Below are positions 318-35,353 of a stretch of 64,000 nt of DNA, piece after piece (position 1 is the stretch's first letter; each line of letters starts with the position of its first letter). The DNA comes from Patescibacteria group bacterium (GTDB lineage: Bacteria > Patescibacteriota > Patescibacteriia > Buchananbacterales > UBA6539): assembly GCA_041662625.1 (NCBI GenBank), contig JBAZSB010000002.1, forward strand, positions 12,024 to 76,023, in the 5' to 3' direction. Under the pieces are notes generated by a model. The model did no database searches, had not been told where the DNA came from, and worked only from the letters and a program-made list of their open reading frames with translations. The translations under genes and the position numbers were made by a program.

Positions 318-436
318 TTTTGTTTTTATTTTGGCTAGGACCGCTAAAACAAAAAAGGTAGCACTTTCTCTACCTTCATTATTATCAGTATACCACAAAT
401 AAATTTTTTTGTCAAATCTATATTATTTATCAAATA

Positions 437-5141: not shown

Positions 5142-7421
5142 CTATTTTGTAACCAACTTTTTGGCCGGCACACTTTGGCCAAATTTCTTTTCTGGCTGAG
5201 CCGAAGACAATTCATTAAGCCCAGCTTTAGTTGACAGCGAAAAACAGAACTTGGAACCTTTGTCGGCGCCTTCGCTTTCCACCCAAATCCTGCCCCGATG
5301 AGCATCAATAATCATTTTCGCTACGTAAAGCCCCAACCCCACGCCTTCGGTATGAACTCGGAAGCTGCCTTTACCCCGGGAAAATTTGCGGAACAATAAA
5401 GGCACCATGTTTTTTTCCACGCCGCGGCCGGTATCTTTAACGCAAAAAGTAATCAAATCTTTTTGGGGTTCATGCAAAAATGAAACGATAATTTCACCTT
5501 TTTCCGTATATTTAATGGCATTATCAACAAAATTCATCATCACTTCATGAATCTTATTGGGATCAGCGGTGATTTCGGGAGTGGGAACTTTTGGTTTATT
5601 AAATAATAATGTTAGATTTTTGGCTGTAGCGGTATTCTTCAAATTATCAACTACAGTCTGGGCAATATCTTCCAGGCGAACTTTTTTCCAGTCAAATTCC
5701 TGCCGGCCTGATTCAATCCGCGAAATATCAAGCAGATTTTCCACCAGTCCAATCAGCCGTTCGTTGGAAGCATAAACTTTTTCTAAATTCGCCATGATGG
5801 TCGGCGAAACCGGACCAAAAGATCCTTCACGCATCATCGAGATATAACCTTTAATCACAGTCAAAGGCGTGCGCAGCTGATGCGAAGCAATGGAAATAAA
5901 TTCAGACTTGGCCTGATCCAGCTGGCGCAGCTCCTGATTAGCTCTGCGCAACTGGGCAGTTTTACGCCGGACTTCTTCCTCCAATTTAACATTGAAATCT
6001 TTCAACTCATCATAAAGCCGGGCGTTTTCAATAGCAATACCCGCTTGACCAGAAATAAGTTTTAAGACATTTAAATCCTGACGGTTATAGGGATCACCGG
6101 ATTTTTTCGTACCAAAGGCAATTATCCCGATTAGCTGCTCTTTGACATACAGAGGAATAATCAAGGCAATATCGTTTTGATAAAGCGACAAAAGCAATTT
6201 GGCATCAACCGGCTGGAATTCGCCATTCTCATACCGCGTTTTCATTTCATCAATAACTAAAATACCTTTAATATTCTTTAATTCCTGGTTTAAAATTTTA
6301 ACGACATTGGGATAATTAGCCAATTTTTCGGCTTCCAGCGGCACGAAACCTTCCTGATAAAAAATTTCCAACTTGTTTTTTTTATTCAAAAGCACAACCC
6401 CGATTTTTTCACAGTGTAAGGACTCAACCAAAGTTTTGGCAATAGAAGCCAAAAGATTATGTAAATCCAAAATTGAAGAAGTAACTTCGGCAATCTGGGC
6501 CAACAAAATATCAGGGTTATATGACTTTTTATAAAGAAAGCGGTCAGTGATTCCTTCAATAGACCGGCGCAATGGCTGATAAGTAACAGAAACTAAAATT
6601 CCAACAATCAAACCAGAGATTAGATTTGATTTAAAGCCAAGAATGTCCTGAAAAAAAGTGGCGATTACGCCAGAAATAATGGCAAAGGTGATAGTAATAA
6701 CCAGAACAAAAAAACCAAAAGCTAGAGAACGGAAAACAACCAAACGAATATCCATTAAACGATAACGGGTAATGGCATAAGCCACAAAAACTACCATTAT
6801 AATTGTTCCAGTTGGACCTACCCAATTATATTTCGTGGTAAAAAAGAACAGAATTAAATTAGTGATTACGGCAATAATTGTCGAGGCTATTGTCCCCAAA
6901 AACAAATACCATAATTGTAAACGTGAAGTGCCCGAAGATTTTAAAAATTTTGTAACTAAATTAGCAAACGCCCAAGCCATGAATATAAAGGTAACAACTG
7001 AATGAATGTAATATCCCCATCCCACTCTAGCATCTATCTCACCATTACTATGTACAACCGCATCAGCAATAATAGAATGGGGAATTAAAGAAATAGTCCA
7101 TATTATAATTGGAGGTAAAAATAAAATTAGTTTAATTAGTTTGCTCTTGGGAAATTCACCTTTAGGGAAAACAAAAGAAAAATATAAAAAGAAGACAATT
7201 GTAAAATTGACTGCAAAATATACAAATTGTCCCCAAAAATAAACTGTTGCAAGTGTGGCCATCCTAAAAAAAGCTATACCAAAGCACCAAGCCGCAATAC
7301 CAAGAATGGTAATAGCAAAAAGAATATTAGACTTGCTTTTCTTATTTCTTATATAAACAAAAAAAGACAAAAATAAATTTATTACTCCTACAACTAATAA
7401 AATTATATTGCTATAATGCAT
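5142..7421 (-). CDS. Sensor histidine kinase: N-terminal 7TM sensor domain - GAF - HisKA - HATPase_c
   Basis: 759 aa with ~7 N-terminal TM helices, a central GAF-like region, the H-box SIASHQLRTPLTVIKGY, N/G1/G2 boxes (DNAIKYT, DTGRGV, GVGLGL) and a coiled-coil linker. Confidence 0.85.
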   Translation of the reverse strand: MHYSNIILLVVGVINLFLSFFVYIRNKKSKSNILFAITILGIAAWCFGIAFFRMATLATVYFWGQFVYFAVNFTIVFFLYFSFVFPKGEFPKSKLIKLILFLPPIIIWTISLIPHSIIADAVVHSNGEIDARVGWGYYIHSVVTFIFMAWAFANLVTKFLKSSGTSRLQLWYLFLGTIASTIIAVITNLILFFFTTKYNWVGPTGTIIMVVFVAYAITRYRLMDIRLVVFRSLAFGFFVLVITITFAIISGVIATFFQDILGFKSNLISGLIVGILVSVTYQPLRRSIEGITDRFLYKKSYNPDILLAQIAEVTSSILDLHNLLASIAKTLVESLHCEKIGVVLLNKKNKLEIFYQEGFVPLEAEKLANYPNVVKILNQELKNIKGILVIDEMKTRYENGEFQPVDAKLLLSLYQNDIALIIPLYVKEQLIGIIAFGTKKSGDPYNRQDLNVLKLISGQAGIAIENARLYDELKDFNVKLEEEVRRKTAQLRRANQELRQLDQAKSEFISIASHQLRTPLTVIKGYISMMREGSFGPVSPTIMANLEKVYASNERLIGLVENLLDISRIESGRQEFDWKKVRLEDIAQTVVDNLKNTATAKNLTLLFNKPKVPTPEITADPNKIHEVMMNFVDNAIKYTEKGEIIVSFLHEPQKDLITFCVKDTGRGVEKNMVPLLFRKFSRGKGSFRVHTEGVGLGLYVAKMIIDAHRGRIWVESEGADKGSKFCFSLSTKAGLNELSSAQPEKKFGQSVPAKKLVTK

Positions 7422-8148
7422 TCAATTTCTGAAAAACTTTAAAAATAAATTGATTTCTAAATATTAATCTCCCAGAATTTCCTCTCTTGAAAAACAATTG
7501 ATTATTAAAAATTTTATTACAATATGGCACTACCTCTTCAGATAAATAATAAATCGGCCAAACTGGATCTTTATTATCCTTAAAATAATTGCTCAGCACA
7601 CTCTTACAATAAACTTGTTTGAAATCTTTAATAAAATGAAAAGGAAATTTTAATTTTTCAAGCTTCAGCCTTAAAGAATCTTTGATAAACGAGTAACCAC
7701 CATATATATTATTTTCTAAAGCATAATTCATTACAGTATATGTCAATCCTAATAAAACTAAATGTCGAGGTAAAAACGATTTTTCATCATAGCGCTCCAC
7801 GATTAATCGACCGAGTTCAGCCCTTTTATTTCTAGGAATTTTGGAAATTTCTAATGGCTCTTGGAATTGAAAACAATCTTTCTCTGTCGGCAAATATTCA
7901 TCTCGGATTAATCTCACGGTACCAATAATCCTATCATCAATTTTAGCTATAAAATAAACACTCCGGCCATCATCATAGTCATCAACTTCTTTCTCTTCTT
8001 GATTTCTAATAATATAGCTACGTTCTAAATAAATCCTATATCTAAATTTATACATCTCAACCAGCTCCTCATTATGATCTGGCATGCCAAAATAAATTGT
8101 CTTTTCATTCTTATTTATTCTTAAGCTGATCTCGTTTAATACTTTCAT
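7411..8148 (-). CDS. GNAT-fold N-acyl amino acid synthase / autoinducer-synthase-like acyltransferase (Acetyltransf_5-like)
   Basis: 245 aa with YKFRYRIYLERSYI...DDYDD...YFIAKIDDRIIGTVRLI...ELGRLIV, which matches the NAS/LuxI-like GNAT core pattern. Overlaps the upstream methyltransferase by 38 nt; alternative start at 8085. Confidence 0.5.
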   Translation of the reverse strand: MKVLNEISLRINKNEKTIYFGMPDHNEELVEMYKFRYRIYLERSYIIRNQEEKEVDDYDDGRSVYFIAKIDDRIIGTVRLIRDEYLPTEKDCFQFQEPLEISKIPRNKRAELGRLIVERYDEKSFLPRHLVLLGLTYTVMNYALENNIYGGYSFIKDSLRLKLEKLKFPFHFIKDFKQVYCKSVLSNYFKDNKDPVWPIYYLSEEVVPYCNKIFNNQLFFKRGNSGRLIFRNQFIFKVFQKLNAL

Positions 8149-8854
8149 AATCTCTTGGCTTTATCGCTGAATTTAATATTGCCTGACCGGCATAGACTAA
8201 TTTATTCTCTGAAACTTCGACGAAACCATTACGAATGAGCAATTCTTTTTGTTCATTATCCTTCATTAAATGACCCGCTCCTTCATTTTTTTTGATCTTA
8301 GAATTGTAGTAAAACATCTTAACGGTAGGAACGATCATTTTAAAAACTTTTAAAATTAAACACCAAAAACCTATCTTTTTAATATCTTTTTTAAAATGAT
8401 CTTTATAAATATTCACTGGGTTCCAACCTTCTCGGACATTTGAGATAACAATTTTTCCACCTGGTTTTAAAATTCTGTAAAACTCCTTAAAGACTTTATC
8501 TCTATCTCCAGGGGCTAAAGTATAAATAACATTGTTTGAAACTATCTTATCAAAATAATCATCTGAAAATGACAAAGGCTTAGCTAAGTCATGAAATATA
8601 ATTCCAATTTCTTGATCTTTTACTCTAAGTTGCCTTAAACCTTCTTCGCTATTATCTAAGGCGACCACATTCGCCCCTCTTTGTTTTAATCTTACTGCTA
8701 AATTGCCTGTTCCAGCCCCAGCATCTAAGACTAAATCTCCTTTATTAACTACAGATTCTTTGATCAGTTCTTCCATTAATTCTTGGTAAGGAATAACAAT
8801 GTTCAAGATATCGTAGGTTTTAAAATACTGCTGCCAGAATTCTGCATCCAACAT
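8111..8854 (-). CDS. Class I SAM-dependent methyltransferase
   Basis: 247 aa with motif I VLDAGAGTGNLAVRL and motif post-I/II (VVALDNSE, IVSNNVIY). Confidence 0.8.
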   Translation of the reverse strand: MLDAEFWQQYFKTYDILNIVIPYQELMEELIKESVVNKGDLVLDAGAGTGNLAVRLKQRGANVVALDNSEEGLRQLRVKDQEIGIIFHDLAKPLSFSDDYFDKIVSNNVIYTLAPGDRDKVFKEFYRILKPGGKIVISNVREGWNPVNIYKDHFKKDIKKIGFWCLILKVFKMIVPTVKMFYYNSKIKKNEGAGHLMKDNEQKELLIRNGFVEVSENKLVYAGQAILNSAIKPRDYESIKRDQLKNK

Positions 8855-8859
8855 ATAAC

Positions 8860-9534
8860 TTAATCCTTCTTATAAATAAACCTGACCAAAAGAATTATCA
8901 TTGGTAAAGAAAAATATGGTCCTAACCAATATGGTCCGAGTTGCAAAAAAAATAAAGGGGCCAAAGCGGCAAAAAATGAGGCAAAAATTCCAATTATTGC
9001 CGCAGCAGTCATCATATAAGTCAATTGCGTTCTGATAAATCCCTGACTTATTTTGTATTTCTGGAATAAAGTATAAAAAGCCAGAATAACATAAAAATAG
9101 AAATGAATATTAAAGTATGTAATGCCCAGCCGACCCAATAAGTAAGTATTATTTGAGGGCCTTAAGATAATTTCTTTAACCCAGATGCCCGGTATTATTG
9201 TTACTAGAATCATAACAACAATACTTATTCCGATTAACAAAACCTGCCAAGATTTTAAAATTTTACTTTGATAAGGAAAATAAATGGAAAGAAAAAAGAA
9301 AGGAATTACTAACATTGCTCCTGACCCATTTTGTACCCAGGTCCAAATCCAGGCTGTCTGCACGGTTTGCGCTTCCCGAAAAAGCGCCATGCCCAGCGTC
9401 CAAGTACCTACCAAAAAAACCGTTATGGCAAAAGTGATATTAATTTTATTTTTTGGATTCCTTAGCCAGACCAAAAGTGCTAAACCGATATTGAGTCCGG
9501 CGACAATAATTAATCCAATATTTGTCCAGTACAT
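8860..9534 (-). CDS. Stand-alone 7TM membrane protein paralogous to the N-terminal sensor domain of the adjacent histidine kinase
   Basis: 224 aa with 6-7 TM helices. Its N-terminus MYWTNIGLIIVAGLNIGLALLVWLRNPKNKINITFAITVFLVGTWTLGMALFREA aligns with the kinase N-terminus MHYSNIILLVVGVINLFLSFFVYIRNKKSKSNILFAITILGIAAWCFGIAFFRMA. Confidence 0.6.
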   Translation of the reverse strand: MYWTNIGLIIVAGLNIGLALLVWLRNPKNKINITFAITVFLVGTWTLGMALFREAQTVQTAWIWTWVQNGSGAMLVIPFFFLSIYFPYQSKILKSWQVLLIGISIVVMILVTIIPGIWVKEIILRPSNNTYLLGRLGITYFNIHFYFYVILAFYTLFQKYKISQGFIRTQLTYMMTAAAIIGIFASFFAALAPLFFLQLGPYWLGPYFSLPMIILLVRFIYKKD

Positions 9535-26594: not shown

Positions 26595-27062
26595 TTATTT
26601 TTTTACTTTAAATACCAGCCAATTCTTTTTTTGCGCCGTAAACTGGGTTAAAACATAAACTCCCCGGAGCTTTTTGCCCTTCAATTCAAACTTTAAAGAC
26701 TTGGATGTATGTTCCAACAGCTTAAATTTGCCTTTGTCCAAAATTTCCACCAGGCCGGCACCGTAATTACCTTTCGGGATTACTCCGGCAAAATTAATAT
26801 AGGCAACTGGATGATCTTCTACGGCAACAGCCAAATGTTTGACTCCGGCAATAGTTGGAATACCTTTGGGTACTGCCCAAGATTTTAAAACAACCGGACC
26901 TTTAATAATTTTATCTGGCAATTCCAACCTGAAATCATAATGCAAATGTGAGGCTGAATGTTTTTGGACAACAAAACGTGACTGGCTTTTTATTTTAGCT
27001 TGTGCCTTAGGCTCCGGCGTTTTACTAAACTTTCTTTTCTTTTGATATTTTTCTAAAGCCAT
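26595..27062 (-). CDS. Stand-alone LigD-type 3'-phosphoesterase (PE) domain protein
   Basis: RFVVQKHSASHLHYDFRLE...LKSWAVPKG matches the LigD PE active-site block (HxxHxHYDFRLE, WAVPKG); 155 aa. Confidence 0.7.
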   Translation of the reverse strand: MALEKYQKKRKFSKTPEPKAQAKIKSQSRFVVQKHSASHLHYDFRLELPDKIIKGPVVLKSWAVPKGIPTIAGVKHLAVAVEDHPVAYINFAGVIPKGNYGAGLVEILDKGKFKLLEHTSKSLKFELKGKKLRGVYVLTQFTAQKKNWLVFKVKK

Positions 27063-27068
27063 ACAAAT

Positions 27069-27130
27069 AGAAATCAGAAATTAGAAATCAGAAGAATAAT
27101 TCTGATCTCTGATCTCTGATTTCTGATCTC
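27069..27130. repeat. Long imperfect inverted repeat built of tandem AGAAATCAGA units
   Basis: agaaatcagaaattagaaatcagaagaat | aattctgatctctgatctctgatttctgatctc, lying between two minus-strand genes. Confidence 0.7.
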
Positions 27131-27134
27131 TGGA

Positions 27135-27416
27135 TTATCCCTTAAGATAAACCAAATCGCCTTCTTTGACTGACTGGGCCACTTTTAAACCAACAGCGTC
27201 ACCAGATTTAGCGACACTCACCTGTTCATGTTCGACTTGCATTGAATCAACCGGCTGCTCAAAATCACCACCATGAGTCGCGATGATAATGGTATCGCCG
27301 ACTTTAAGTTGGCCGGCTAATTCCAAGACTCCGACCCCGATTTTGTTAAAGTAGTGGGTGATTTTGCCAATCTGCTTACCTTTGGGTAATTCAATTTTTT
27401 GTGCATCGTCTGCCAT
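27135..27416 (-). CDS. Small beta-barrel protein resembling translation-factor domain 2 (EF-Tu D2-like)
   Basis: 93 aa; GKITHYFNKIGVGVLELAGQLKVGDTIII...GDAVGLKV...EGDLVYL is the pattern of the EF-Tu domain-2 barrel. Confidence 0.4.
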   Translation of the reverse strand: MADDAQKIELPKGKQIGKITHYFNKIGVGVLELAGQLKVGDTIIIATHGGDFEQPVDSMQVEHEQVSVAKSGDAVGLKVAQSVKEGDLVYLKG

Positions 27417-27461
27417 ATACTAAAATTCTAGCTTTTAAGCCAAAATAAGTCAATGGAGTCA

Positions 27462-27514
27462 AAAAAAGAGACCAGCTGACAGAGTACCTCCTTTCTTCTG
27501 TCAAACTGGTCACA
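27462..27514 (-). terminator. Rho-independent terminator ending the GC-rich purine operon
   Basis: On the minus strand: GACCAGTTTGACAG...CTGTCAGCTGGTC followed by TCTTTTTTT. Confidence 0.6.
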
Positions 27515-27540
27515 AGTAGCATTCAGGGCATCCCTCCGGA

Positions 27541-28842
27541 TTAGCCCATGTAGTTGTCGAGTTCTTCCCGACGCATCTGATCGAAGGCATACACTGCCGG
27601 ATTGGTCTGCCCCAGAATCTGCATCGCCGCTCCGATCGCGTTGCCTTCGGGCCAAGTCGTCAGATTCGGCGTCTGCGATGGCAGGTGTACGCTTGACCAA
27701 AGATCATCCGGAAATTGCTCGAGAGTCGCTGGGACCGAAATCACTGGCCAAGGACTGTGAGCCGCGACGATCGGACCCAGACCATTGGACCGGCCGGCCT
27801 TGACCACGATGACGCCACCTTGCGGATAGTCATAGAACAGCCGTTCCAGACGCTGCAGCCCCTCAACCGGACTCTTGTGGCCGGAAGCCACGATCCGTTC
27901 AACGGTGACTCCAGGCAACTGGGGAACTTTTGGTGCTTCATCCTTGTCGGACCCAAGCCAGACAACCAGCGCCTGTCTCGGGAGCACCAAGCGTTCGGCC
28001 ATCTGGGCGACGTAACGGTAGTTCTCTTCGACTTGGCCAAGGACAGCAGCGCCACCATCGCGGAACACCTGCTTATCGAGCGGTTTGCCATTTTCCCAAA
28101 GACGCCAACTGTCGTTGTCCACGACATCGGAAACTCGGAGTTCGCTGTCGGCTTCGATCTTGATGTCAAGCCATGTGAGGCCAAAGTTCGCCCAGGCCCG
28201 CTCAAGGATCAAAGACACCCGGCGAACCAATTGATCAAGCTTGGCCATATCCGCCAGATCGGTGATGACCCCACTAGCAGGAATCTTGGCAAACGGGCTA
28301 ACCCGATGTCGACTCTCACCCTCGCCCTCTTCATGCCAGATCGGCTTCTTGGGCAAGGCAAGATCCCAGGTATCCTTGAAGGGATCAAGGATCAACGGAT
28401 CGTCGCAGGGTAGTGATAGGCCTTTCCAATCTCGACCAGTCGTCTTGAGGAAGAACTCAACCAACAACCGGTGAAAACGGTACGGCTTGGTTGGATCAGC
28501 CGTTCGAAGCTGGGGATTGCGCATCAGGAAACTGCCAACTCCCAGCCGTCGGGCGACAATCTCCAGCAGCAACATCAGCGACCGCAGCGCGACAAACTCC
28601 GTTTCGGAAATCTGCTCCACGTAAGCCACCGGCACGTCGCAAGTCCGAAGAAGTTCGAAAACGCGGCAAGTGGTTATGGTAGCACATTGGGCTTTGGACC
28701 CAAACTTCTGGGTAAAACTCGGGTCATCATGGGCAGTGATGTCCGAACCATTCCTGACGATCACCAGATCGTCTCGGCCTTCTACTGCGAAGATACCCTT
28801 GGTTTTGCCCTTGGCTATCTGCTTACCTAGTGTATACTCCAT
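27541..28842 (-). CDS. purC-purE: Bifunctional SAICAR synthetase (PurC) - N5-CAIR mutase/AIR carboxylase (PurE) fusion, PAICS-like
   Basis: The N-terminal half has PurC blocks (GKTKGIF, DDLVIVRNGSDITAHDD, WLDIKIE). The C-terminal half has PurE blocks (VVWLGSDKDE, IVASGHKSP similar to SAHRTP, AGRSNGLGPIVAAHSPWPVISVP). GC ~60%. Confidence 0.75.
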   Translation of the reverse strand: MEYTLGKQIAKGKTKGIFAVEGRDDLVIVRNGSDITAHDDPSFTQKFGSKAQCATITTCRVFELLRTCDVPVAYVEQISETEFVALRSLMLLLEIVARRLGVGSFLMRNPQLRTADPTKPYRFHRLLVEFFLKTTGRDWKGLSLPCDDPLILDPFKDTWDLALPKKPIWHEEGEGESRHRVSPFAKIPASGVITDLADMAKLDQLVRRVSLILERAWANFGLTWLDIKIEADSELRVSDVVDNDSWRLWENGKPLDKQVFRDGGAAVLGQVEENYRYVAQMAERLVLPRQALVVWLGSDKDEAPKVPQLPGVTVERIVASGHKSPVEGLQRLERLFYDYPQGGVIVVKAGRSNGLGPIVAAHSPWPVISVPATLEQFPDDLWSSVHLPSQTPNLTTWPEGNAIGAAMQILGQTNPAVYAFDQMRREELDNYMG

Positions 28843-28863
28843 GGCATTCCTTTCTCCGACTTT

Positions 28864-29397
28864 TCAGCCGATCTGTTCCTGGTCTTCCGAATCTTCCGGT
28901 CGACCTTCCGATCTCTGACCACAACGGTCACAACCGTCACACTGGTGACCCACGGCAAACCGTTTCAACTCATCGAGCATCTCCAGCACTCCCGCTGCGG
29001 GTTGACCGGATTTCTCGAGTACGGCATCAGCGACCTTGATCGAACATTTGACGCGTAGCGCCACGGCAATGGCGTCGCTGGGCCGCGAATCAACCTTGAC
29101 GACCCCGCCTGCGGTTTTCAACTCGATATAGCCCAGGAAAATCCCGTTACCAGTGAGTTGGTTGATGCCAACTTCCAAAACCTCAGCATCCAAGCCAGCC
29201 AAGATGTTCACGATTAAGTCGTGGGTCATCGGCCTTATAGGCACTTGACCAGCCAAGGCCATACCGATGGCCACAGCTTCGGCTGGACCAATCATGACTG
29301 GTAAGATCAGAGCCGCCGCTTCACTGTGTAACAACACTGTTGGTCGACCTTGGCTATCCTGGACTACAGCCAACGCATGGAGTTCTTGTCTATCCAT
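28864..29397 (-). CDS. Bifunctional-nuclease (BFN/DUF151) family protein with a Cys-rich acidic C-terminal tail
   Basis: The PSDAIAVALR motif and domain length match BFN; the C-terminus carries CDGCDRCGQ. Confidence 0.55.
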   Translation of the reverse strand: MDRQELHALAVVQDSQGRPTVLLHSEAAALILPVMIGPAEAVAIGMALAGQVPIRPMTHDLIVNILAGLDAEVLEVGINQLTGNGIFLGYIELKTAGGVVKVDSRPSDAIAVALRVKCSIKVADAVLEKSGQPAAGVLEMLDELKRFAVGHQCDGCDRCGQRSEGRPEDSEDQEQIG

Positions 29398-29476
29398 CGC
29401 ATTCTCTCCTTATGTGGAGTAAGGGTGGGCCAGCCCGGCAAAGGACCGGCCCACACCAGTTTCAGGTTGGAGAACT

Positions 29477-30745
29477 CTACTCCGGCACTTTCCCGTCGGG
29501 ATAAAGGACCGAGTGGCCCTTGCCCTGCGAGATCAGCGACCGGTACGTTTCGAGTGCCGTTTGAACGGCCGGATCAGTCAGGTCCAGTGTCTGGCGTTTC
29601 TCGGCGGCCATATAGGCGGCCTGACAGAGCCTGGTGATTTCCAAGCCGTATTCCCAGTTCAACAGTCCGTCATGGCCTTCACGGAAAGCATCACGGGCAT
29701 CGACCTGCTCATCAACGTAACCGTAAAGGTCGGGTTCGTTGGGCTGAACAGCCAGAAGGCCACGCGAAGCCGTCGACTTCTCCAAGGCCCCCTCGGCATC
29801 GGTCACGGCTTCGGCCGCGGCATCGCCGATGAAGACCTCAAGCGACGAACGCAAGGAGTTGACCTCCAAAGCATAGCCCGGGCCCATTCCTTCCATCGAG
29901 AGTCGGAGGCCCTGCTTGTCGTACATCCAAGAAGTGGCAAACTGAGCCACAACACGCTGCCGGGTCTCCGGATTCTCAAAGGTGACCAGACCGGTGGCGA
30001 AGTCTTCGGCCGGAACCAACGCGTAGTCAACGCCCATCCTCTTCAGGAGTTGGGCTCGATACTTGGGCTGGCCCCACTTCAGAAGCAGGGTATCGGCCCC
30101 AATACTAACCGGCCTGAGGAATCTCAGATCCTTGCCGACCGGTGTCAAAAGACGCCAAAGCACCGCGATGGTGTGGCAAGCCATGTCCGAAAGGACACCG
30201 CCACCTTGCCGGGTTGCATCCCAGAACCAACCCTCGTGGGGTCCAGAATGTTCTTCGCCGCCACGAGCCAAAACCAACGGCCCCATCTTTCCTTGGACGC
30301 GAGCCAGACCTTTCAGCCCTGCTTTGATGGCTTTCATGTGGATCTGGTTCTCGAAGTACGAGGTCGGGCAGCCGAGAGTCTTGGCCAGCTCAACCATACG
30401 GCGAGCCTCGGTAATGGTTCGGCCCAACGGCTTTTCGCAGATCAGCCCTTTGGGTTTCTTACCCAGTCTCGTCGCCGCATCGACGACCTGTTCCATCAAT
30501 TCAACGCGGAACGGATTCGGGGCGAAATTGGCAATCACGTCGCAATGCTCGACAAGATCGGCGACGCTTTTGTATACTACGCAATCAATTTCGCCGGTAG
30601 CGGTGGCCTTAGCGGCCAGTTGTTCCGCACCCTTCAGGGCGTGGACACCGCCGAATTCCAAACCAGGTACCAACTGGTTGGCGGCCTGCTGGAAATTGGC
30701 AACAAATCCAGCACCCATCGATCCTAGTCTGAGGATTTCCTTCAT
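29477..30745 (-). CDS. Gfo/Idh/MocA-family NAD(P)-dependent oxidoreductase
   Basis: N-terminal Rossmann fold, the EKP motif (LICEKPLGRTITEARRMVELAK) and length 422 aa; RBS AAAGGAGAG. Confidence 0.75.
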   Translation of the reverse strand: MKEILRLGSMGAGFVANFQQAANQLVPGLEFGGVHALKGAEQLAAKATATGEIDCVVYKSVADLVEHCDVIANFAPNPFRVELMEQVVDAATRLGKKPKGLICEKPLGRTITEARRMVELAKTLGCPTSYFENQIHMKAIKAGLKGLARVQGKMGPLVLARGGEEHSGPHEGWFWDATRQGGGVLSDMACHTIAVLWRLLTPVGKDLRFLRPVSIGADTLLLKWGQPKYRAQLLKRMGVDYALVPAEDFATGLVTFENPETRQRVVAQFATSWMYDKQGLRLSMEGMGPGYALEVNSLRSSLEVFIGDAAAEAVTDAEGALEKSTASRGLLAVQPNEPDLYGYVDEQVDARDAFREGHDGLLNWEYGLEITRLCQAAYMAAEKRQTLDLTDPAVQTALETYRSLISQGKGHSVLYPDGKVPE

Positions 30746-30873
30746 CAGTCTCTCCTTTCAATCAAACACTGTCTCCAATCTCTCTCCCGCCCTGAAACAG
30801 ATCAGGCCGGAACACTTCTTTTTGTTTCTTTGCCGTTTCTCCTTCCTTATCTTTTGTAACTTCCCTCGCTTGG

Positions 30874-30946
30874 TTGTGAAAAAACAAGTCTTTCCCTCCC
30901 TTTGGAAAAGACTATTAAAACTGGGTTTAATTTAACAAAAAAAAGC
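30874..30946. promoter_or_regulatory. Conserved ~73-bp upstream element, copy 1 (second copy at 34510..34590), containing the palindrome AGTCTTTCC-N9-GGAAAAGACT
   Basis: ttgtgaaaaaacaagtctttccctccctttggaaaagactattaaaactgggtttaatttaacaaaaaaaagc compared with ttgtcaaaaaaacaaagtcttcccctcacgttggaaaagacttttccctacaaaactggctttaatttaacaaaaaaaagc. Both lie 5' of minus-strand operons. Confidence 0.6.
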
Positions 30947-30982
30947 TATAAAGTCAATCACATGATGCTAATCTACAATTTA

Positions 30983-31014
30983 TGCGAATGATAATAATAT
31001 TCGCAACATTCGCA
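30983..31014. promoter_or_regulatory. Perfect inverted repeat TGCGAAT-N9-ATTCGCA plus a third ATTCGCA half-site (candidate operator)
   Basis: tgcgaat gataataat attcgca ac attcgca; AT-rich and lies ~240 bp upstream of the oxidoreductase start. Confidence 0.5.
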
Positions 31015-31226
31015 TACTACTCGCATCCATTATCATTATATTAAAAAAAGGACCAGACAACCTTCTTCATCTCGCCGAATCCGCTTTCAAGCGGAGAAGG
31101 CGGGACTTGGTCGTTATGGTCCCTTGGATCTCAATAGTGTACAAAACCCTCCTTAGTCTCGCCGTAGTCCGAAGGACGTAGGCGGATTAGTCTCGCCGTA
31201 GTCCGAAGGACAAAGGCGGACTTGGG

Positions 31227-32924
31227 TTAGTGGCGAAAGCCCCGGCACTTCTTGTCTGGCATCAGGTACAGCGTCATACCGGCCGCAGTCAGTTCCTCCT
31301 GAACTTTTCCGTCGTTGACCGAACCGGACGAAGCGAATAAGACGGTGATTCCTGCTTCGTGCAACACCAGACCAGCATCACCGAAAGGCAAGAAGCTATC
31401 CGAATAGGCAGCGGCTTCCACCAACCCTACTTTTTCCTCGTCCTGTCTGTTGGCTTCACCGCGCTCATAGCCTCGAACTGCCAGCTCTGCCGCACCGACG
31501 CGATCCATCCGACCGCATCCGTTGCCTTCCAGTTCGTAGACGATCATATCTCTGACTTGCCTCTGCCTCACAATGGTGATGGTATTGCTCTTGGCCTGAG
31601 AGCCGATTGCCCAACCAGCCTTGAGACAGCCTTCCAATTCTGGTCGGCGAGGTCCGATGATTTGCAGATCCGGATCGTCAAACGACGGCACAAACTGGCT
31701 CGGCGGATAATGAGTGTAGTCCCCGCCACCGACATGGGTAAAGATCGGGGTATTATCCATAGGTAGATTGCCAGCCAGCGCCGGATTCAACATCACACGG
31801 CACTTGCCTGTCTTTTTGCGCGCCAGTATTTCGATCGCATTTTCGTCAGCGCTGGGCGCAAACACAGCATCCAGAATCCGGCGCTGTCCTTTCGGCATAT
31901 GGTAATACAGCAGCATGTCAGCGATCTCGGCAGTGATATGGAAGTTGAACAGCAGTACGCCGCCATGAATCGCCAATTCATCGCCTTCGATCATGCTTCT
32001 GACCGCCTCGACGATGGCATCTCGTCCTTTGCCTTTGACAATCCCGGCACCGCAGATATTGACGTGCTTGTCCGCCAAGGCAAAACTGTGTGTGTCTGCC
32101 GGAAATACTGCCGCCAGCCGTGTCATGGTTTCGGTCAGCGTATGGAGATCATCCAAGTTGTTGCAGCTTGGACTCATGCCTTCAACTCCGACGAAGCGGC
32201 TCGGCGCCAACTCCCAATCACCACCACCGGTATACAAGGCGGCTGGCACTTGGTGAGGATTGGGTCCATAAGCGAGCGACAAAACCCGTTCGCCGCTGAT
32301 GCCGGCGAACTGTCCGTCGCTGATGAAATCTGCTGCTGTCAGGTAATGTCTGGCAATCATTGCCAGCGCTTTGCCGGCGAGGCGCTTTCGGGTCTCGGGT
32401 AAGACATCGCCATCGTTTTTCACCATTTCTTCCCAGACCTTGGGAATGTCAGATTCATCGACAACGACGATGCGCAAACGCTTTGAACCCATCGCTGCTT
32501 GCGCCGGTCCACCGACGTCAACCTTTTCCAGCACCTCCTCAAACGATAGCGCTCCACTGTCGATCGCGGCCTGGAGATCGTAGAATCCGCCGACGAATAT
32601 CTCGCAAAGTGGCCCGCCGAGTTCACGCAGCTCATCAAGGTGTTTGGGTTTGGCTGGTTTGGCACACAGTGCACCAAGTACCTTGGGATGCAGCGATACT
32701 ACGCCGTGGTCGAACATCGGCGGCGAGCCAATGGTCGCATAGTTGTTACAGGTAATACCACTCCCTTCGAGGAAACAGGTTGTGCCGTCCGACCCATAGA
32801 GGGTCAATCCCAATGATTCATGCAGATAGCGAGCAAATGCTGCAATCCCTTCTGTCTTGTCAGCAACGCTTAAAAACGCTGCCCTGACAATTCCTGAATC
32901 TGCCGTACTCACTTTATCACTCAT
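31227..32924 (-). CDS. purH: Bifunctional AICAR transformylase / IMP cyclohydrolase
   Basis: N-terminal MGS-like block FLSVADKT...GSDGT...LHPKV and the C-terminus ...SDSFLPFGDAG...VLFASSGSVNDG...RGFRH, which matches the PurH C-terminus (ASDAFFPFRD...QPGGSIRD...RHFRH). Confidence 0.8.
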   Translation of the reverse strand: MSDKVSTADSGIVRAAFLSVADKTEGIAAFARYLHESLGLTLYGSDGTTCFLEGSGITCNNYATIGSPPMFDHGVVSLHPKVLGALCAKPAKPKHLDELRELGGPLCEIFVGGFYDLQAAIDSGALSFEEVLEKVDVGGPAQAAMGSKRLRIVVVDESDIPKVWEEMVKNDGDVLPETRKRLAGKALAMIARHYLTAADFISDGQFAGISGERVLSLAYGPNPHQVPAALYTGGGDWELAPSRFVGVEGMSPSCNNLDDLHTLTETMTRLAAVFPADTHSFALADKHVNICGAGIVKGKGRDAIVEAVRSMIEGDELAIHGGVLLFNFHITAEIADMLLYYHMPKGQRRILDAVFAPSADENAIEILARKKTGKCRVMLNPALAGNLPMDNTPIFTHVGGGDYTHYPPSQFVPSFDDPDLQIIGPRRPELEGCLKAGWAIGSQAKSNTITIVRQRQVRDMIVYELEGNGCGRMDRVGAAELAVRGYERGEANRQDEEKVGLVEAAAYSDSFLPFGDAGLVLHEAGITVLFASSGSVNDGKVQEELTAAGMTLYLMPDKKCRGFRH

Positions 32925-32954
32925 ACTCGTCTCTCTCCTTTTCTCTCTCTGTTC

Positions 32955-34481
32955 CTAGGCCACAATGGCCAAGGGTTTCATTGCCTTCAATCCATTCTTC
33001 ATTTCTCTTCGCGCATCCTTGATCGCATCACCAACATAGGCTGCCGGATGCTTCAGTAGGTAAATCTCGCGTGGAGTTAATCCTTTCCAGACGCGCCGGA
33101 ACTTAGGATCAGCCCCGTCAGACTCCATATATTGCTCGGCTGCAACGCAAAGATTGGGCGCACCAGCTTTGACCCGGGCCACTAGTTCCTTCTTGACGAA
33201 GGTGTGAGCGCCTTCAAAGCCTTGCCGCTGCAATGCGTTGTGGAGTAATTCCGCTAACGATGCTGGTCCGAATATCTTGACCCAGTGCAGGCAGCGTTCT
33301 TCGTTGAACGCCAGAGCGCCCATCTGCCGATGCACGCTGTACAACTCCTGGGTAAAGTACTCAAGGGCTTCGATGAAAGTGCGCATCACCGAGGACCACC
33401 GCAAATCGCGTTGGAAGTTGCTCCCGCGCGTCAGCCACGGTCTTAAGGCACAACTCAACACGATTGCATCGGCGCCAATGGCGTTCTCAGCCCGAATGGG
33501 GTTGGCTTCCTTGGCTGCTCCCGCCGAAGAGGTCGAGGTAATACCGACATCCTTTGAAGGAATGACCTCGCCGAGTTCAGGCATGTGCAAGATCCGGAGA
33601 TCATCACACAGACTCATCATCGGTCCGCTGATCGCGACGAGCTCGCTGTAAAAACGAACCGTGTGATGAATAGGCGGAACCTGACTAGCACCTCTGGCTA
33701 CCGGCAAGTCAAGAATATTCATCAGCGTCCGTTCGGCTTTTTTGGGAATACCGACGGCGCGCTGCGATGCGGCGGTACCGACGAAACCACAGAACTTGCC
33801 CGGCACCGCCAAGGCAGCCCGTTGCAGTTCCACAGCGCAGTCAATGTATTGCTGATGGCCACAAGCCAGATAAAATCCGACTGTACCTGGTATGGCCGGC
33901 TGCAAGTGGGTGCGAAACATCTCCCGCATCTTCAGGTTTTCACCAATCTTGGCTCGCCAAACTTCATCGAGTGCCATCATCTTTGGCCAAATAATCAGAC
34001 TGAACACAACTCGAAGCTGCAAGGCATATGCCGTCGAAATCGTGTCATAGGAAGTTGCCGTATAGTGCAACCACTTCCAAAGTCCTTTGGGAAGATAACG
34101 GCGCATCAATGCCAGAAGCGCCAGGATATCGTGGCCGATTCCTTTGGTCTTCTTCTTTCTGTCTCCGTATTCGAGGCGATCCTGTTTTGTTGTGGTGACA
34201 TTCTTGAGGACGTAGAGCAAACGCTCTTTCGTCAGCAATTTGGCGTCCTTTTCCGGCATGATTCCGATAATGGCTAACGCCACCATCCAGAACCATTCCA
34301 CCAGGACCAACCAAAGTGCCCATTGGTCATAGCCGAGGTACGGAACCAGTTCCGGTTGCTGTTCTGCATATCTGTGATCCATATGCATCACCAGCACCCG
34401 CCGTCGATCCTTGGCTAAAACCGCGAAATACGCAATCGCGGCCGCTAACATCTCTCGGGCTTTATCAATAGTCATACGCAC
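32955..34481 (-). CDS. Adenylosuccinate-lyase-like protein (fumarate-lyase superfamily), divergent with a hydrophobic N-terminal extension
   Basis: A fumarate-lyase signature-like block TSTSSAGAAKEANPIRAEN (consensus GSSxMPxKxNP), length 508 aa and operon context with purH/purC-E; RBS AAGGAGG. Confidence 0.5.
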   Translation of the reverse strand: MRMTIDKAREMLAAAIAYFAVLAKDRRRVLVMHMDHRYAEQQPELVPYLGYDQWALWLVLVEWFWMVALAIIGIMPEKDAKLLTKERLLYVLKNVTTTKQDRLEYGDRKKKTKGIGHDILALLALMRRYLPKGLWKWLHYTATSYDTISTAYALQLRVVFSLIIWPKMMALDEVWRAKIGENLKMREMFRTHLQPAIPGTVGFYLACGHQQYIDCAVELQRAALAVPGKFCGFVGTAASQRAVGIPKKAERTLMNILDLPVARGASQVPPIHHTVRFYSELVAISGPMMSLCDDLRILHMPELGEVIPSKDVGITSTSSAGAAKEANPIRAENAIGADAIVLSCALRPWLTRGSNFQRDLRWSSVMRTFIEALEYFTQELYSVHRQMGALAFNEERCLHWVKIFGPASLAELLHNALQRQGFEGAHTFVKKELVARVKAGAPNLCVAAEQYMESDGADPKFRRVWKGLTPREIYLLKHPAAYVGDAIKDARREMKNGLKAMKPLAIVA

Positions 34482-34509
34482 ACCTCCTTAGTTCCAACTC
34501 CAACCCTAA

Positions 34510-34590
34510 TTGTCAAAAAAACAAAGTCTTCCCCTCACGTTGGAAAAGACTTTTCCCTACAAAACTGGCTTTAATTTAACAAAAAAAAGC
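34510..34590. promoter_or_regulatory. Conserved ~73-bp upstream element, copy 2
   Basis: See 30874..30946; lies ~30-110 bp upstream of the purB-like start. Confidence 0.6.
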
Positions 34591-34608
34591 CTGACCGTCA
34601 AATGAAGA

Positions 34609-35229
34609 CTAATCAAGCCTGATGGCATTCAATACTTGCCAAATTTGCTCCGGCGTGGTTTCGGGCACAACGGCAAACTCGATGATTCGCACTTGGCCCG
34701 CCCGATAGTGCTGGATTAAAGGCAAGGTTTGTTGGTAGTAAATCCTAAGCCTCTCCGCAATGGCAGCAGGTGTGTTGTCGTCTCGGCCGCGGCGTTCATC
34801 ATGAGCATCAAGGGCAATCCTGGCAGCAACATCATCTGGTGAACACTCCAGTACCACCACCAGTTTGATTGTGGCAAAAGATTCAACCATGCGCGCCTGA
34901 AAGACGTTGCGGGGCAGACCGTTAAGAACTACCCAGTCATCAGCTCCAACGGCCGACTCAAGGTAATGCCTTAGGATTTTTCCCGCCACGGGAAATTCAT
35001 CGTCGGCAAGCAACCTGCTAGCAGCAAAAACTTGCCCTATTACTTCATGATCATGAGCATCCAAAAAAGGCATGACGTCCGGTTGTTTCTGAGCAGTTCT
35101 CAGCTGGTCCCCGAAGTCAAAATGACAGCAACGTCTGCCGCCAAAGCCCTGCTCTTGGATTAACTTACCCAGCGGTGATTTACCACTGCCAGTTGGACCT
35201 ACTACTAAAAGAGCTTTGTGTCGACGCAT
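34609..35229 (-). CDS. Adenylate-kinase-family nucleoside monophosphate kinase
   Basis: P-loop GPTGSGKS, NMP-binding and LID-like motifs (LNGLPRN, RRGRDDN). Start placed at the internal ATG that has RBS GGAGGAAGG; the ORF opens at 35307. Confidence 0.6.
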   Translation of the reverse strand: MRRHKALLVVGPTGSGKSPLGKLIQEQGFGGRRCCHFDFGDQLRTAQKQPDVMPFLDAHDHEVIGQVFAASRLLADDEFPVAGKILRHYLESAVGADDWVVLNGLPRNVFQARMVESFATIKLVVVLECSPDDVAARIALDAHDERRGRDDNTPAAIAERLRIYYQQTLPLIQHYRAGQVRIIEFAVVPETTPEQIWQVLNAIRLD

Positions 35230-35353
35230 TGTCCTTCCTCCGTTGTTGGGACAAACTTTTCGCCTCAAGATTAGATTAAAATTAACAGAAAATAACCAAG
35301 GCGTCAATAAAAGTCAATTGACAAAAAATAGCAACAAAACTATGCTACTAATA

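What the first reader, a model, noticed from the sequence alone, without database searches (positions are those of the whole stretch)
30846..31230. Shared 73-bp conserved upstream element (two copies) with a palindromic core, plus a TGCGAAT-N9-ATTCGCA operator-like repeat, in the purine island
A ~73-bp sequence (ttgtgaaaaaacaagtctttccctccctttggaaaagactattaaaactgggtttaatttaacaaaaaaaagc) sits upstream of the oxidoreductase/BFN/purC-E transcription unit. It recurs at ~85% identity at 34510-34590 upstream of the purB-like/purH unit. Both copies contain the inverted repeat AAGTCTT(T/C)CC-N8-9-GGAAAAGACTT. This suggests one dimeric regulator (or a common leader-RNA hairpin) co-controlling the two operons. 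Separately, at 30983-31014 there is a perfect 7-bp inverted repeat TGCGAAT-gataataat-ATTCGCA followed by a third ATTCGCA. It is strikingly AT-rich inside GC-rich DNA, as expected for a protein-binding site.
Basis: seen in the sequence. Interest (0 to 1): 0.6.

Follow-up and report, generated by a model that had tools for sequence, protein, structure and literature searches.

The report
Shared promoter and leader terminator cassette
Two purine-like operons of an uncultured Patescibacteria bacterium each begin with the same strong promoter followed at once by a conserved RNA hairpin that looks like a transcription stop signal; this is probably a shared gate on both operons, it is kept in related genomes, and its trigger is unknown.

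Summary
The genes lie on the minus strand. Read on that strand, the "73-bp element" is a cassette of four parts:
- a near-consensus sigma-70 promoter (TTGACN-17-TGnTAAATT);
- a predicted start 7 nt after the -10;
- a 7-15 nt flank;
- a 10-12 bp hairpin (AGUCUUUUCC / GGAAAGACU) followed by UUG-U6-GACAAU, which has the anatomy of an intrinsic terminator.

I found 13 copies in 7 Patescibacteria genomes. Every one is 5' of either the purB-like unit (purH-like follows it in most loci) or the purC-like unit. Copies A and B are each closer to their orthologue in another genome than to each other.

The inverted repeat works as RNA, not as a DNA operator:
- all 21 non-Watson-Crick stem pairs are G.U on the sense strand;
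- loop length runs from 4 nt to about 48 nt;
- the antisense strand folds worse.

Rfam has no match. No antiterminator is conserved across copies, so the trigger is unknown. A conserved GGAGG in the loop and the conserved tail are the likely contact points.

The TGCGAAT repeats are non-random. They recur as an array of TACGAAT/ATTCGTA boxes at the orthologous site in one relative. This is a plausible PurBox-like (CGAA-core) protein site, but it is unproven and specific to that lineage.

Verdict: a new member of a known kind (leader attenuator), of moderate interest.

The parts
30952..30957 (-). Copy A, -35 hexamer TTGACT
   Evidence: Promoter scan. The same position holds TTGACN in all 13 family members.
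30929..30937 (-). Copy A, extended -10: TGtTAAATT, with a 17-nt spacer
   Evidence: The spacer is 17 nt in 12 of 13 members, and the TG is present in 12 of 13.
30922..30922 (-). Copy A, predicted transcription start (an A, 7 nt after the -10). Inferred, not measured.
   Evidence: The 7th base after the -10 is A in 10 of 13 members.
30887..30913 (-). Copy A, leader RNA hairpin AGUCUUUUCC-AAAGGGA-GGGAAAGACU. It has 10 bp, and GGAGG sits at the junction of the loop and the 3' arm.
   Evidence: Terminator scan. Fold energy is -12.2 kcal/mol. Covariance model R1 scores it 62.7 bits.
30872..30886 (-). Copy A, U-tract and conserved tail UGUUUUUUCACAACC
   Evidence: The orthologous copy L004b is identical over this stretch.
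30746..30871 (-). Copy A, rest of the 5' leader up to the ATG of the GFO/IDH/MocA oxidoreductase gene. Some blocks are conserved with L004.
30983..31014 (.). Three TGCGAAT/ATTCGCA heptamers (CGAA core) in AT-rich DNA, 61-92 bp upstream of the predicted start of unit A. This is a candidate protein-binding array.
   Evidence: The orthologous intergenic region in L004 carries 4 TACGAAT boxes and 4 inverted ATTCG(T) boxes, one of them only ATTCGA.
34596..34601 (-). Copy B, -35 hexamer TTGACG. It starts 8 nt after the stop codon of the adk-like gene (34609).
34573..34581 (-). Copy B, extended -10: TGtTAAATT
34566..34566 (-). Copy B, predicted transcription start (A). Inferred, not measured.
34523..34553 (-). 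Copy B, leader RNA hairpin AAAGUCUUUUCC-AACGUGA-GGGGAAGACUUU (12 bp, 2 of them G.U)
   Evidence: R1 scores it 63.5 bits.
34508..34522 (-). Copy B, U-tract and conserved tail GUUUUUUUGACAAUU. The purB-like ATG is at 34475.
27541..30745 (-). Unit A, controlled by copy A: GFO/IDH/MocA oxidoreductase (29477-30745), BFN-domain protein (28864-29397), and a purC-purE-like fusion (27541-28842)
   Evidence: Pfam and NCBIfam searches.
31227..34475 (-). Unit B, controlled by copy B: purB-like lyase (32955-34475) and purH-like gene (31227-32924). It ends with its own terminator near 31040.

Best explanation
The shared element is a promoter-leader cassette, read on the minus strand. A near-consensus sigma-70 promoter with an extended -10 fires about 7 nt after the -10. 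After a short flank of 7-15 nt, the nascent RNA folds into a conserved hairpin with an all-pyrimidine 5' arm (AGUCUUUUCC) and an all-purine 3' arm. The hairpin is followed directly by a U-tract, so it has the anatomy of an intrinsic terminator at roughly +10 to +50.

The default outcome is therefore early termination. Expression of the purB-like/purH-like unit and of the oxidoreductase/BFN/purC-E unit needs read-through, and both units carry the same gate, so they are co-regulated.

Shown:
- the parts and their order;
- conservation in 7 genomes;
- exclusive association with these two kinds of unit;
- the RNA-strand character of the hairpin.

Inferred:
- the transcription start site;
- that RNA polymerase actually terminates there;
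- that read-through is regulated.

The trigger is not identified. No antiterminator is conserved, so a trans-acting factor is the most likely trigger. That factor could be a protein, the 30S subunit or a small ligand. It would contact the invariant GGAGG at the loop/3'-arm junction, or the invariant tail UUG-U6-GACAAU.

The TGCGAAT boxes upstream of copy A are a separate, lineage-specific candidate site for a DNA-binding protein.
For: Promoter evidence:
- The promoter and terminator are called independently by the scan tool at both copies.
- All 13 family members have TTGACN, a 17-nt spacer (18 nt in one) and TANNNT. TG is present in 12 of 13, and an A lies 7 nt after the -10 in 10 of 13.

Hairpin evidence:
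- In 11 members the hairpins hold 105 Watson-Crick and 21 G.U pairs with no mismatches on the sense strand. In all 11 the antisense fold is weaker, ten of them by 2.7-9.9 kcal/mol and L002a by only 0.1.
- Model R1 scores the sense strand at 46-65 bits and the antisense strand at 14-22 bits.
- Loop length runs from 4-7 nt up to inserts of 37-48 nt that fold on their own (L002b, L120a, L120b).
- L120a has AAGUCCCU...AGGGACUU, a U-A to C-G change on both sides of the stem.
- A U-run follows the stem even where the GACAAU tail is displaced (L003a and L003b).

Specificity:
- There are only 2 copies in the 64-kb window.
- All true hits of the metagenome scan lie 5' of a purB-like gene.
- In 182 kb of related loci, the only promoter-then-terminator cassettes found are this element, 8 of 61 promoter-like sites.

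Age: winA is closest to L004b (79%) and winB to L004a (74%), against 71% for A versus B. Both copies have therefore been kept separately since before the two lineages split, at 69% PurB identity.

Distant relatives carry analogous leaders: AAGGAGG, a different hairpin and a U-run, and in L119 the same tail.
Against: - There is no experimental transcription start or 3'-end data.
- No antiterminator is conserved. Only winB, L004a and L101a have a weak competitor (GGGAAA pairing with UUUUCC, -4 to -5 kcal/mol); seven other copies have none.
- Classical covariation is uninformative. The stem is 98.3% paired, but shuffles give 98.2%, because a U arm pairs with any purine.
- The GGAGG lies 7-9 nt before an invariant UUG in 10 of 13 copies (2-4 nt in L120a and L120b; L003b has no such UUG). 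This could instead mark a tiny leader ORF.
- One unrelated promoter-then-terminator cassette exists in the window at about 415-330, so this layout is not wholly specific to the purine-like units.
- In copy B the hairpin would also end adk-like transcripts, so part of its role may be ordinary termination.
Confidence: 0.6

Rival explanations
1. The inverted repeat is a double-stranded DNA operator bound by a dimeric repressor that sits just downstream of the start site of both units.
For: The repeat is nearly perfect and lies at about +10 to +40, where roadblock operators can act. The stem sequence is conserved more strongly than a terminator would need.
Against: - The spacing between arms varies from 4 to 7 nt, and to 37-48 nt in three members.
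- The 5' arm is almost invariant, while the 3' arm drifts between A and G.
- All 21 imperfect pairs are G.U on the sense strand, which would be A-C mismatches on the other strand.
- A U-run always follows, and only on the sense strand.
- No transcription factor was found in the cluster or anywhere in the 64-kb window apart from a RodZ-like protein and one small Xre-type protein.
Confidence: 0.05
2. The hairpin mainly acts on translation or mRNA stability rather than on termination. The GGAGG would be a real ribosome-binding site that is sequestered by a U-rich arm (as in a fourU thermometer) or acts as a 5' stabiliser (as in STAB-SD). It would serve a micro-ORF that starts at the invariant UUG and encodes M-F-F-(D/H)-N. 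Translation of that ORF would affect the downstream gene.
For: - GGAGG or GAGGG is present in 12 of 13 copies (L120b has GGAAAGG), lying 7-9 nt before UUG in 10 of 13.
- The U-run between the UUG and (G/C)AC is 6 nt in 10 copies, 3 nt in 1 and 7 nt in 2, so the reading frame is kept in 11 of 13.
- Codon 5 varies between synonymous pairs (AAU/AAC and AUU/AUC).
- The tail and AAGGAGG are conserved in L119 around a different hairpin.
- Real genes in this window use GGAGG-type ribosome-binding sites.
Against: - L003b keeps UUUGACAAU with no start codon.
- winB and L101a are frameshifted to M-F-F-stop.
- ORF length ranges from 3 to more than 40 codons, and two run in frame into purB.
- GAC is invariant at its third position in all 11 copies that carry it (winA and L004b have CAC).
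- In the distant leaders the spacing from GGAGG to the start is 1-19 nt.
- A U-tract placed directly after the stem is unnecessary for a stabiliser or a thermometer, yet it is always present.
Confidence: 0.15
3. The hairpin is an ordinary, unregulated terminator or insulator. It ends transcripts from the gene upstream (adk-like for copy B). For the embedded promoter it merely lowers expression by a fixed fraction.
For: - In copy B the promoter starts 8 nt after the adk-like stop codon, and no other terminator lies between them.
- A similar layout occurs at about 415-330 after an unrelated gene.
- No antiterminator is conserved.
Against: - Copy A and L002a are each preceded by a separate strong terminator for the upstream gene, yet they keep the hairpin.
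- The hairpin sequence, the GGAGG and the tail are conserved across genomes whose intergenic DNA is otherwise diverged. The A and B copies have been kept separately for a long time.
- The promoter is near-consensus. Pairing a very strong promoter with a fixed strong terminator would be wasteful.
Confidence: 0.1
4. The two copies belong to a mobile or selfish repeat (MITE-like) that happens to lie in intergenic DNA.
For: In L002 both copies are preceded by a MITE-like inverted repeat of about 100 nt.
Against: - There are only two copies in 64 kb and none elsewhere in 14 related loci.
- No hits in viral contigs.
- Of the 33 hits in the metagenome scan, the only true members lie 5' of purB-like genes.
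- Position and orientation relative to the genes are fixed. The copies are orthologous across genomes.
Confidence: 0.02

Closest known systems
Leader transcription attenuators built on an intrinsic terminator, e.g. the Bacillus subtilis pyrG attenuator (CTP-sensitive reiterative transcription; bioRxiv 10.1101/732214)
   Same: A promoter is followed within a few tens of nucleotides by a terminator hairpin whose 5' arm is pyrimidine-rich. It sits upstream of a nucleotide-metabolism gene, and the default state is termination.
   Different: pyrG needs a GGGC initially transcribed region, so that extra G residues can pair with the pyrimidine arm. Here the predicted starts are AGUUUU, ACAAAAC, AUAAAA and others. 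No homopolymer complementary to the 5' arm lies at +1, and the flank is not conserved.
HMP-PP (thiS motif) riboswitch, a 'terminator-embedded aptamer' (PMC6478431)
   Same: It is a compact element that looks like a plain terminator but is unusually conserved in sequence. It associates exclusively with the genes of one pathway. It has no separate aptamer domain.
   Different: Rfam gives no match. The gene context is purine-like, not thiamin. No conserved alternative P1 or pseudoknot was found. The loop sequence is variable except for GGAGG, and large inserts in the loop are tolerated.
PurR-PurBox control of purine operons in Bacillus and Lactococcus (PMC8789054)
   Same: This comparison concerns the TGCGAAT boxes. 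They share a central CGAA/TTCG core in AT-rich flanks, in direct and inverted orientation, just upstream of the -35 of a purine-related operon.
   Different: PurBoxes are 14-bp inverted repeats with a spacer of 16-17 bp. Here the centre-to-centre distances are about 16 and 25 bp, and in L004 there are 8 boxes with irregular spacing. No PuR_N/PRT-type PurR is encoded in the window. The motif is absent from L003, L004a and L120a.
STAB-SD 5' mRNA stabilisers and fourU RNA thermometers (from my own knowledge; not read here)
   Same: A Shine-Dalgarno-like GGAGG lies near the 5' end of the mRNA and is paired with a run of U residues.
   Different: Those elements do not need a U-tract after the hairpin. 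They act on the SD of the real gene (fourU) or on no ORF at all (STAB-SD). Here the main gene has its own SD further downstream.

Membership tests
Intrinsic (Rho-independent) terminator in a 5' leader (attenuator) | A stable stem-loop followed directly by a U-rich tract on the transcribed strand | tested here: met
   Stems of 9-13 bp, -10.8 to -15.2 kcal/mol (excluding L002b, which carries the loop insert), with at least 5 U in the next 8-9 nt. This holds for 11 family members, all 13 counting L120a and L120b.
Intrinsic (Rho-independent) terminator in a 5' leader (attenuator) | Located between the promoter/start site and the start codon of the regulated gene | tested here: inconclusive
   A consensus promoter lies 13-21 nt upstream of the hairpin in every member. 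The start site itself is predicted, not measured.
Intrinsic (Rho-independent) terminator in a 5' leader (attenuator) | A mutually exclusive antiterminator structure, or a defined antitermination factor | tested here: not met
   Only 3 of 10 tested copies have a weak competitor hairpin; the others have none. No factor was identified.
Intrinsic (Rho-independent) terminator in a 5' leader (attenuator) | Termination and conditional read-through actually occur | not testable with these tools
   This needs Term-seq or in vitro transcription.
Known riboswitch or leader RNA families (purine, ZTP, PRPP, HMP-PP, PyrR site and others) as held in Rfam 15 | A match to the family covariance model at the gathering score | tested here: not met
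   No matches in the whole window at gathering threshold. Permissive searches gave only chance-level hits with E-values of 0.23-9.
HMP-PP-type terminator-embedded aptamer (as a kind of device) | Conserved unpaired nucleotides and an alternative ligand-bound fold that overlaps the terminator | tested here: inconclusive
   The GGAGG and the tail are conserved, but no conserved alternative fold was found, and the loop tolerates inserts of 37-48 nt.
pyrG-type reiterative-transcription attenuator | A homopolymer at the start site whose reiterated copies can pair with the 5' arm of the terminator | tested here: not met
   The predicted transcripts start with AG, AC, AU, CG, GC or GG. The runs at +3 to +6 are U in five copies and A in four, which is inconsistent, and they are not complementary to the pyrimidine arm.
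Palindromic DNA operator of a dimeric transcription factor | Fixed spacing between half-sites and symmetric conservation of both arms | tested here: not met
   Spacing ranges from 4 to 48 nt. Variation is one-sided, A to G on the 3' arm only. All 21 imperfect pairs are G.U on the sense strand.
PurR/PurBox operator (for the TGCGAAT boxes) | A CGAA/TTCG core in AT-rich flanks, as an inverted pair just upstream of the -35 | tested here: met
   The criterion is taken from PMC8789054.
PurR/PurBox operator (for the TGCGAAT boxes) | 14-bp boxes separated by 16-17 bp | tested here: not met
   The box centres are about 16 and 25 bp apart in the window. L004 has 8 irregularly spaced boxes.
PurR/PurBox operator (for the TGCGAAT boxes) | A PurR protein (PuR_N plus PRT fold) encoded in the genome | tested here: inconclusive
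   None was found among the roughly 50 window ORFs scanned with Pfam. FtsK, the RNA polymerase subunits, SHMT, FolD and VIT1 were not scanned. Only 64 kb of the genome is available.
Mobile repeat / MITE | Many copies in unrelated genomic contexts | tested here: not met
   Two copies in the window, and every copy elsewhere has the same gene context.

The most novel reading that the evidence does not exclude
The hairpin and its tail form a compact, terminator-embedded sensor. It would be either a very small riboswitch or a site read by the 30S subunit or by a protein through the GGAGG. It would be specific to a divergent, partial purine pathway (AIR/AICAR to IMP type) in Patescibacteria. That would make it the first cis-regulatory RNA class described for this reduced-genome radiation. 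It would also be a second example, after HMP-PP, of an aptamer hidden inside a terminator.
Probability: 0.15. Interest if true: 0.7.

Novelty: new member of a known kind. Interest (0 to 1): 0.45.

Why it matters
Almost nothing is known about gene regulation in Patescibacteria (the candidate phyla radiation). These bacteria have very small genomes and few recognisable regulators. A sequence-conserved promoter-plus-terminator leader, dedicated to two operons of a divergent purine-like pathway, provides three things:
- a concrete regulatory RNA that can be tested directly;
- a handle on when these symbionts switch on nucleotide salvage or synthesis;
- a covariance model that can be run over all Patescibacteria genomes to map the regulon.

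If the element senses a metabolite directly, it would also help identify the unknown substrate of this pathway.

Tried and rejected
1. A second promoter that uses the conserved TTGACA of the tail. No TANNNT lies 16-18 nt downstream in the nine TTGACAAT-tail copies checked, and in winB and L003b it would leave no room for a ribosome-binding site (read). Rejected.

2. pyrG- or pyrBI-type reiterative transcription. The runs at +3 to +6 are U in some copies and A in others, and they are not complementary to the 5' arm. Rejected as a general mechanism.

3. A register-shifted alternative hairpin (UCUUUUCC pairing with GGGAGGGA). It works for winA but not for winB or L004a, which have GUGAGGGG. Not conserved.

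4. A conserved antiterminator in the 5' flank. Present in only 3 of 10 copies.

5. The UUGU...ACAA mini-hairpin in the tail. It is predicted in several folds, but it has only 3-4 weak pairs and never varies, so it cannot be tested.

6. Classical covariation statistics. These are uninformative for a U-rich/purine helix.

7. Rfam searches, both at gathering threshold and permissive. Nothing found.

8. A protein-guided scan of genome contigs.

9. The metagenome pattern scan. Of 33 hits, 29 were chance matches.

10. A search for a regulator gene. Pfam over about 50 window ORFs, and PDB sequence searches of the small cluster proteins, gave no PurR and no obvious RNA-binding regulator.

11. Enrichment of RCGAAT near all copies. 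The overall figure is fivefold, but it is driven by winA and L004b. Without those two, 8 were observed against about 3 expected.
Full report
**Setting**

The window comes from a Patescibacteria (CPR) metagenome-assembled genome. The purB-like protein is 100% identical to an NCBI entry named "MAG: lyase family protein [Patescibacteria group bacterium]". The "purine island" at about 27-35 kb is 50-57% GC, in a window that averages 43%. All of its genes are on the minus strand:
- adk-like (34609-35307);
- purB-like (32955-34475);
- purH-like (31227-32924);
- a 481-bp intergenic region;
- a GFO/IDH/MocA oxidoreductase (29477-30745);
- a BFN-domain protein (28864-29397);
- a purC-purE-like fusion (27541-28842);
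- small ORFs and a LigD phosphoesterase.

The pur-like proteins score far below the NCBIfam equivalog cut-offs: purB 108 bits against 326, and purH 201 against 402. They are therefore divergent paralogues. The same cluster, usually next to ychF (several loci) and, in L001-L003, folD and glyA, recurs in other Patescibacteria.

**Observation check**

Both copies, the inverted repeat and the TGCGAAT repeats are present as described. The two copies share 66 identical positions, which is 92% of ungapped columns and 80% with gaps. Three TGCGAAT/ATTCGCA heptamers within 32 bp would arise by chance with a probability of about 8e-5 across the window.

**What the 73 bp are**

Read on the coding (minus) strand, each copy has these parts in order:
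- TTGAC(T/G);
- a 17-nt spacer ending in TGt;
- TAAATT;
- six bases and then an A;
- a flank of 9-15 nt;
- AGUCUUUUCC, a 7-nt loop, and GGRAAGACU;
- UUG, then U6-7, then (G/C)ACAA.

The scan tool calls a promoter (9 of 12 matches, with TG) and a terminator at exactly these places in both copies. Most of the "conserved 73 bp" is therefore a promoter and the first ~50 nt of its transcript.

**The family**

Using homologues of the purB-like protein and one DNA-pattern scan of metagenome contigs, I collected 13 members in 7 genomes. They are winA, winB, L002a/b, L003a/b, L004a/b, L089a, L101a/b and L120a/b.
- Every member lies 5' of either the purB-like gene (followed by purH-like in most loci) or the unit that contains the purC-like gene.
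- All have TTGACN, a spacer of 17 nt (18 nt in one), and TANNNT. TG is present in 12 of 13. An A is the 7th base after the -10 in 10 of 13.
- A covariance model built from ten members recovers all the close members at 46-65 bits and finds nothing else in the window or in 14 related loci. Antisense hits score 14-22 bits.
- A scan of viral contigs found none.
- Among 61 strong promoter-like sites in 182 kb of related loci, the only ones followed by a terminator are family members.
- In the window there is one extra, unrelated cassette at about 415-330.
- winA is most similar to L004b (79%) and winB to L004a (74%), while A and B share 71%. The two copies are therefore old paralogues that have been kept separately. 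They are not a recent duplication or a mobile repeat.

**RNA or DNA?**

Four observations point to an RNA hairpin on the sense strand.
- In 11 members the stems hold 105 Watson-Crick pairs, 21 G.U pairs and no mismatch. The reverse complement folds worse in all 11, ten of them by 2.7-9.9 kcal/mol and L002a by only 0.1. Every departure from a perfect palindrome is thus of the kind that RNA tolerates on this strand only.
- The 5' arm is almost invariant, while the 3' arm drifts between A and G.
- Loop length is 4-7 nt in ten members. In L002b, L120a and L120b it is 37-48 nt, and the inserts form their own hairpins. A dimeric DNA-binding protein could not span such variable spacing.
- L120a has AAGUCCCU...AGGGACUU, a change from U-A to C-G on both sides.

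A caveat applies. The usual covariation statistics are uninformative here. The stem is 98.3% paired, but shuffling gives 98.2%, because a U-rich arm pairs with any purine. Only the slide control discriminates, at 47-78%.

**Terminator character**

A U-run follows the stem in every member. In L003a and L003b the GACAAU module has moved 10-12 nt downstream, and the hairpin still keeps its own U5. Copy A and L002a are each preceded by a separate terminator for the upstream gene, so the hairpin is not just that gene's terminator. In copy B the promoter begins 8 nt after the adk-like stop codon, so the hairpin would also end adk-like transcripts.

**What could open the gate?**

I looked for a conserved antiterminator and did not find one. 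Truncated transcripts fold into a competitor (GGGAAA pairing with UUUUCC, -4 to -5 kcal/mol) only in winB, L004a and L101a. Seven other copies have none.

Two features are conserved beyond what a terminator needs.

*A Shine-Dalgarno-like GGAGG at the junction of the loop and the 3' arm.* It stays next to the 3' arm even when the loop carries a large insert.

*The tail UUG-U6-GACAAU.* It is also present in L119 behind a quite different hairpin.

More distant relatives (L005, L006, L118, L119, L121a/b, L123) have leaders with the same grammar: start site, AAGGAGG, a GC-rich hairpin and a U-run. L122 and L124 have none.

The GGAGG lies 7-9 nt before an invariant UUG in 10 of 13 members, and the U-run keeps the frame in 11 of 13. 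This gives a possible micro-ORF encoding M-F-F-(D/H)-N. The evidence against the ORF is as follows:
- L003b has no start codon;
- two copies are frameshifted;
- ORF lengths are erratic;
- GAC is invariant at its wobble position in all 11 copies that carry it;
- a ribosome could not load before the termination decision is made.

I therefore keep the ORF as a rival and not as the main reading.

The TTGACA in the tail is not a second promoter, because no -10 follows it. Reiterative transcription of the pyrG type (10.1101/732214) does not fit the predicted starts.

The closest conceptual precedent for a "peculiar", sequence-conserved, pathway-specific terminator is the HMP-PP riboswitch (PMC6478431). 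Here no alternative fold is conserved, and Rfam has no match.

**The TGCGAAT boxes**

These lie 61-92 bp upstream of the predicted start of unit A, in DNA of 29% GC.
- The orthologous intergenic region of L004 has four TACGAAT boxes, a spacer of about 50 bp, and four inverted ATTCG(T) boxes just before the -35. The repeated heptamer is therefore conserved as an array, with a concerted G-to-A change.
- Elsewhere the motif is marginal. There are 8 RCGAAT in 3.8 kb around the other copies, against about 3 expected, and none near L003a/b or L004a.
- The CGAA core, the AT-rich flanks, the inverted arrangement and the position just upstream of the -35 all recall the Bacillus PurBoxes (PMC8789054). 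The spacing does not match, however.
- No PurR-type protein is present among the window ORFs.

It is a reasonable candidate protein site for unit A in this sub-lineage. It is not a shared feature of the two units.

**Conclusion**

The finding is real, and its second interpretation (a common leader-RNA hairpin) is the right one. The element is a promoter followed by a leader terminator. It is a previously undescribed but conventional kind of cis-regulatory leader, conserved in and specific to the purine-like operons of a group of Patescibacteria. Whether read-through is regulated, and by what, remains inferred.

Noticed in passing
window 31046-31226 (minus strand); L004 6265-6430: The 3' UTR of the purH-like gene holds three tandem hairpin units of about 35 nt (AGUCCGCCU..GYCC-YUC-GGRC..GGCGAGAC). 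They are followed by AAGGAGG and a long terminator. The units are conserved in L004 with a compensatory change (GUCC/GGAC to GCCC/GGGC). The two canonical units are the only matches to this pattern in the window (the third is degenerate). Their stem base, AGUC...GACU, is the same as that of the leader hairpin.
   Followed up: partly
window 330-415 (minus strand): A third, unrelated promoter-then-terminator cassette: TTGACA-17-TGgTATACT, with the leader AUGAAGGUAG..CUACCUUUUUUGUUUU. It lies directly after the stop codon of an inositol-monophosphatase-family gene and upstream of a secreted repeat protein. Model R1 does not match it.
   Followed up: partly
window 27000-35300: The purine-like cluster is 50-57% GC in a window that averages 43% GC. 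Its purB-, purH-, purC-, purE- and adk-like proteins all score far below the NCBIfam equivalog cut-offs. The set covers only the late steps (AIR/CAIR to IMP), plus a kinase, a BFN nuclease-domain protein and a LigD phosphoesterase. This suggests a divergent salvage or partial pathway that is conserved in Patescibacteria.
   Followed up: partly
L089 4480-4530 (minus strand); L101 1655-1710: In these two relatives the leader carries a second hairpin after the tail. It has a conserved loop AAUGUGA (GGCGAAUGUGACG) and compensatory stem changes. It again contains GCGAAU.
   Followed up: no
window 30746-30872 (minus strand); L004 6650-6780: The long leader of unit A has blocks conserved with L004: GAGGGAAGTWACAARAGA, AAGGAAGGAGAAACG and GAAGTGTTCCGGCCTGAWCTGT. 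It also has a small predicted hairpin around CCGGCC. With only two sequences there is no covariation to assess.
   Followed up: partly
L002 9700-9850 and 13510-13620; L121 about 5670-5800: MITE-like inverted repeats of about 100 nt (CTGTCATTCTGAGC...CTCAGAATGACA, and GTCATTGCGAGG...CTCGCAATGAC) lie directly upstream of the promoters in these relatives.
   Followed up: no
window 27135-27416 (minus strand): A 93-aa ORF that is conserved in the cluster. It resembles a stand-alone domain-II beta-barrel of a translation factor (weak matches to eIF5B and EF-1alpha). Its function is unknown.
   Followed up: partly
window 5142-9534 (minus strand): A stretch of 29-42% GC encodes a 7TM-GAF histidine kinase, a protein resembling FeeM or an autoinducer synthase, a methyltransferase and a second 7TM protein. 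This is unusual signalling content for a Patescibacteria genome.
   Followed up: no
window 34545-34566 (minus strand); L004 2877-2906; L101 1605-1622: In three of the copies upstream of purB, the 5' flank (GGGAAA) can pair with UUUUCC of the terminator's 5' arm (-4 to -5 kcal/mol). This is a weak antiterminator candidate, limited to these copies.
   Followed up: partly
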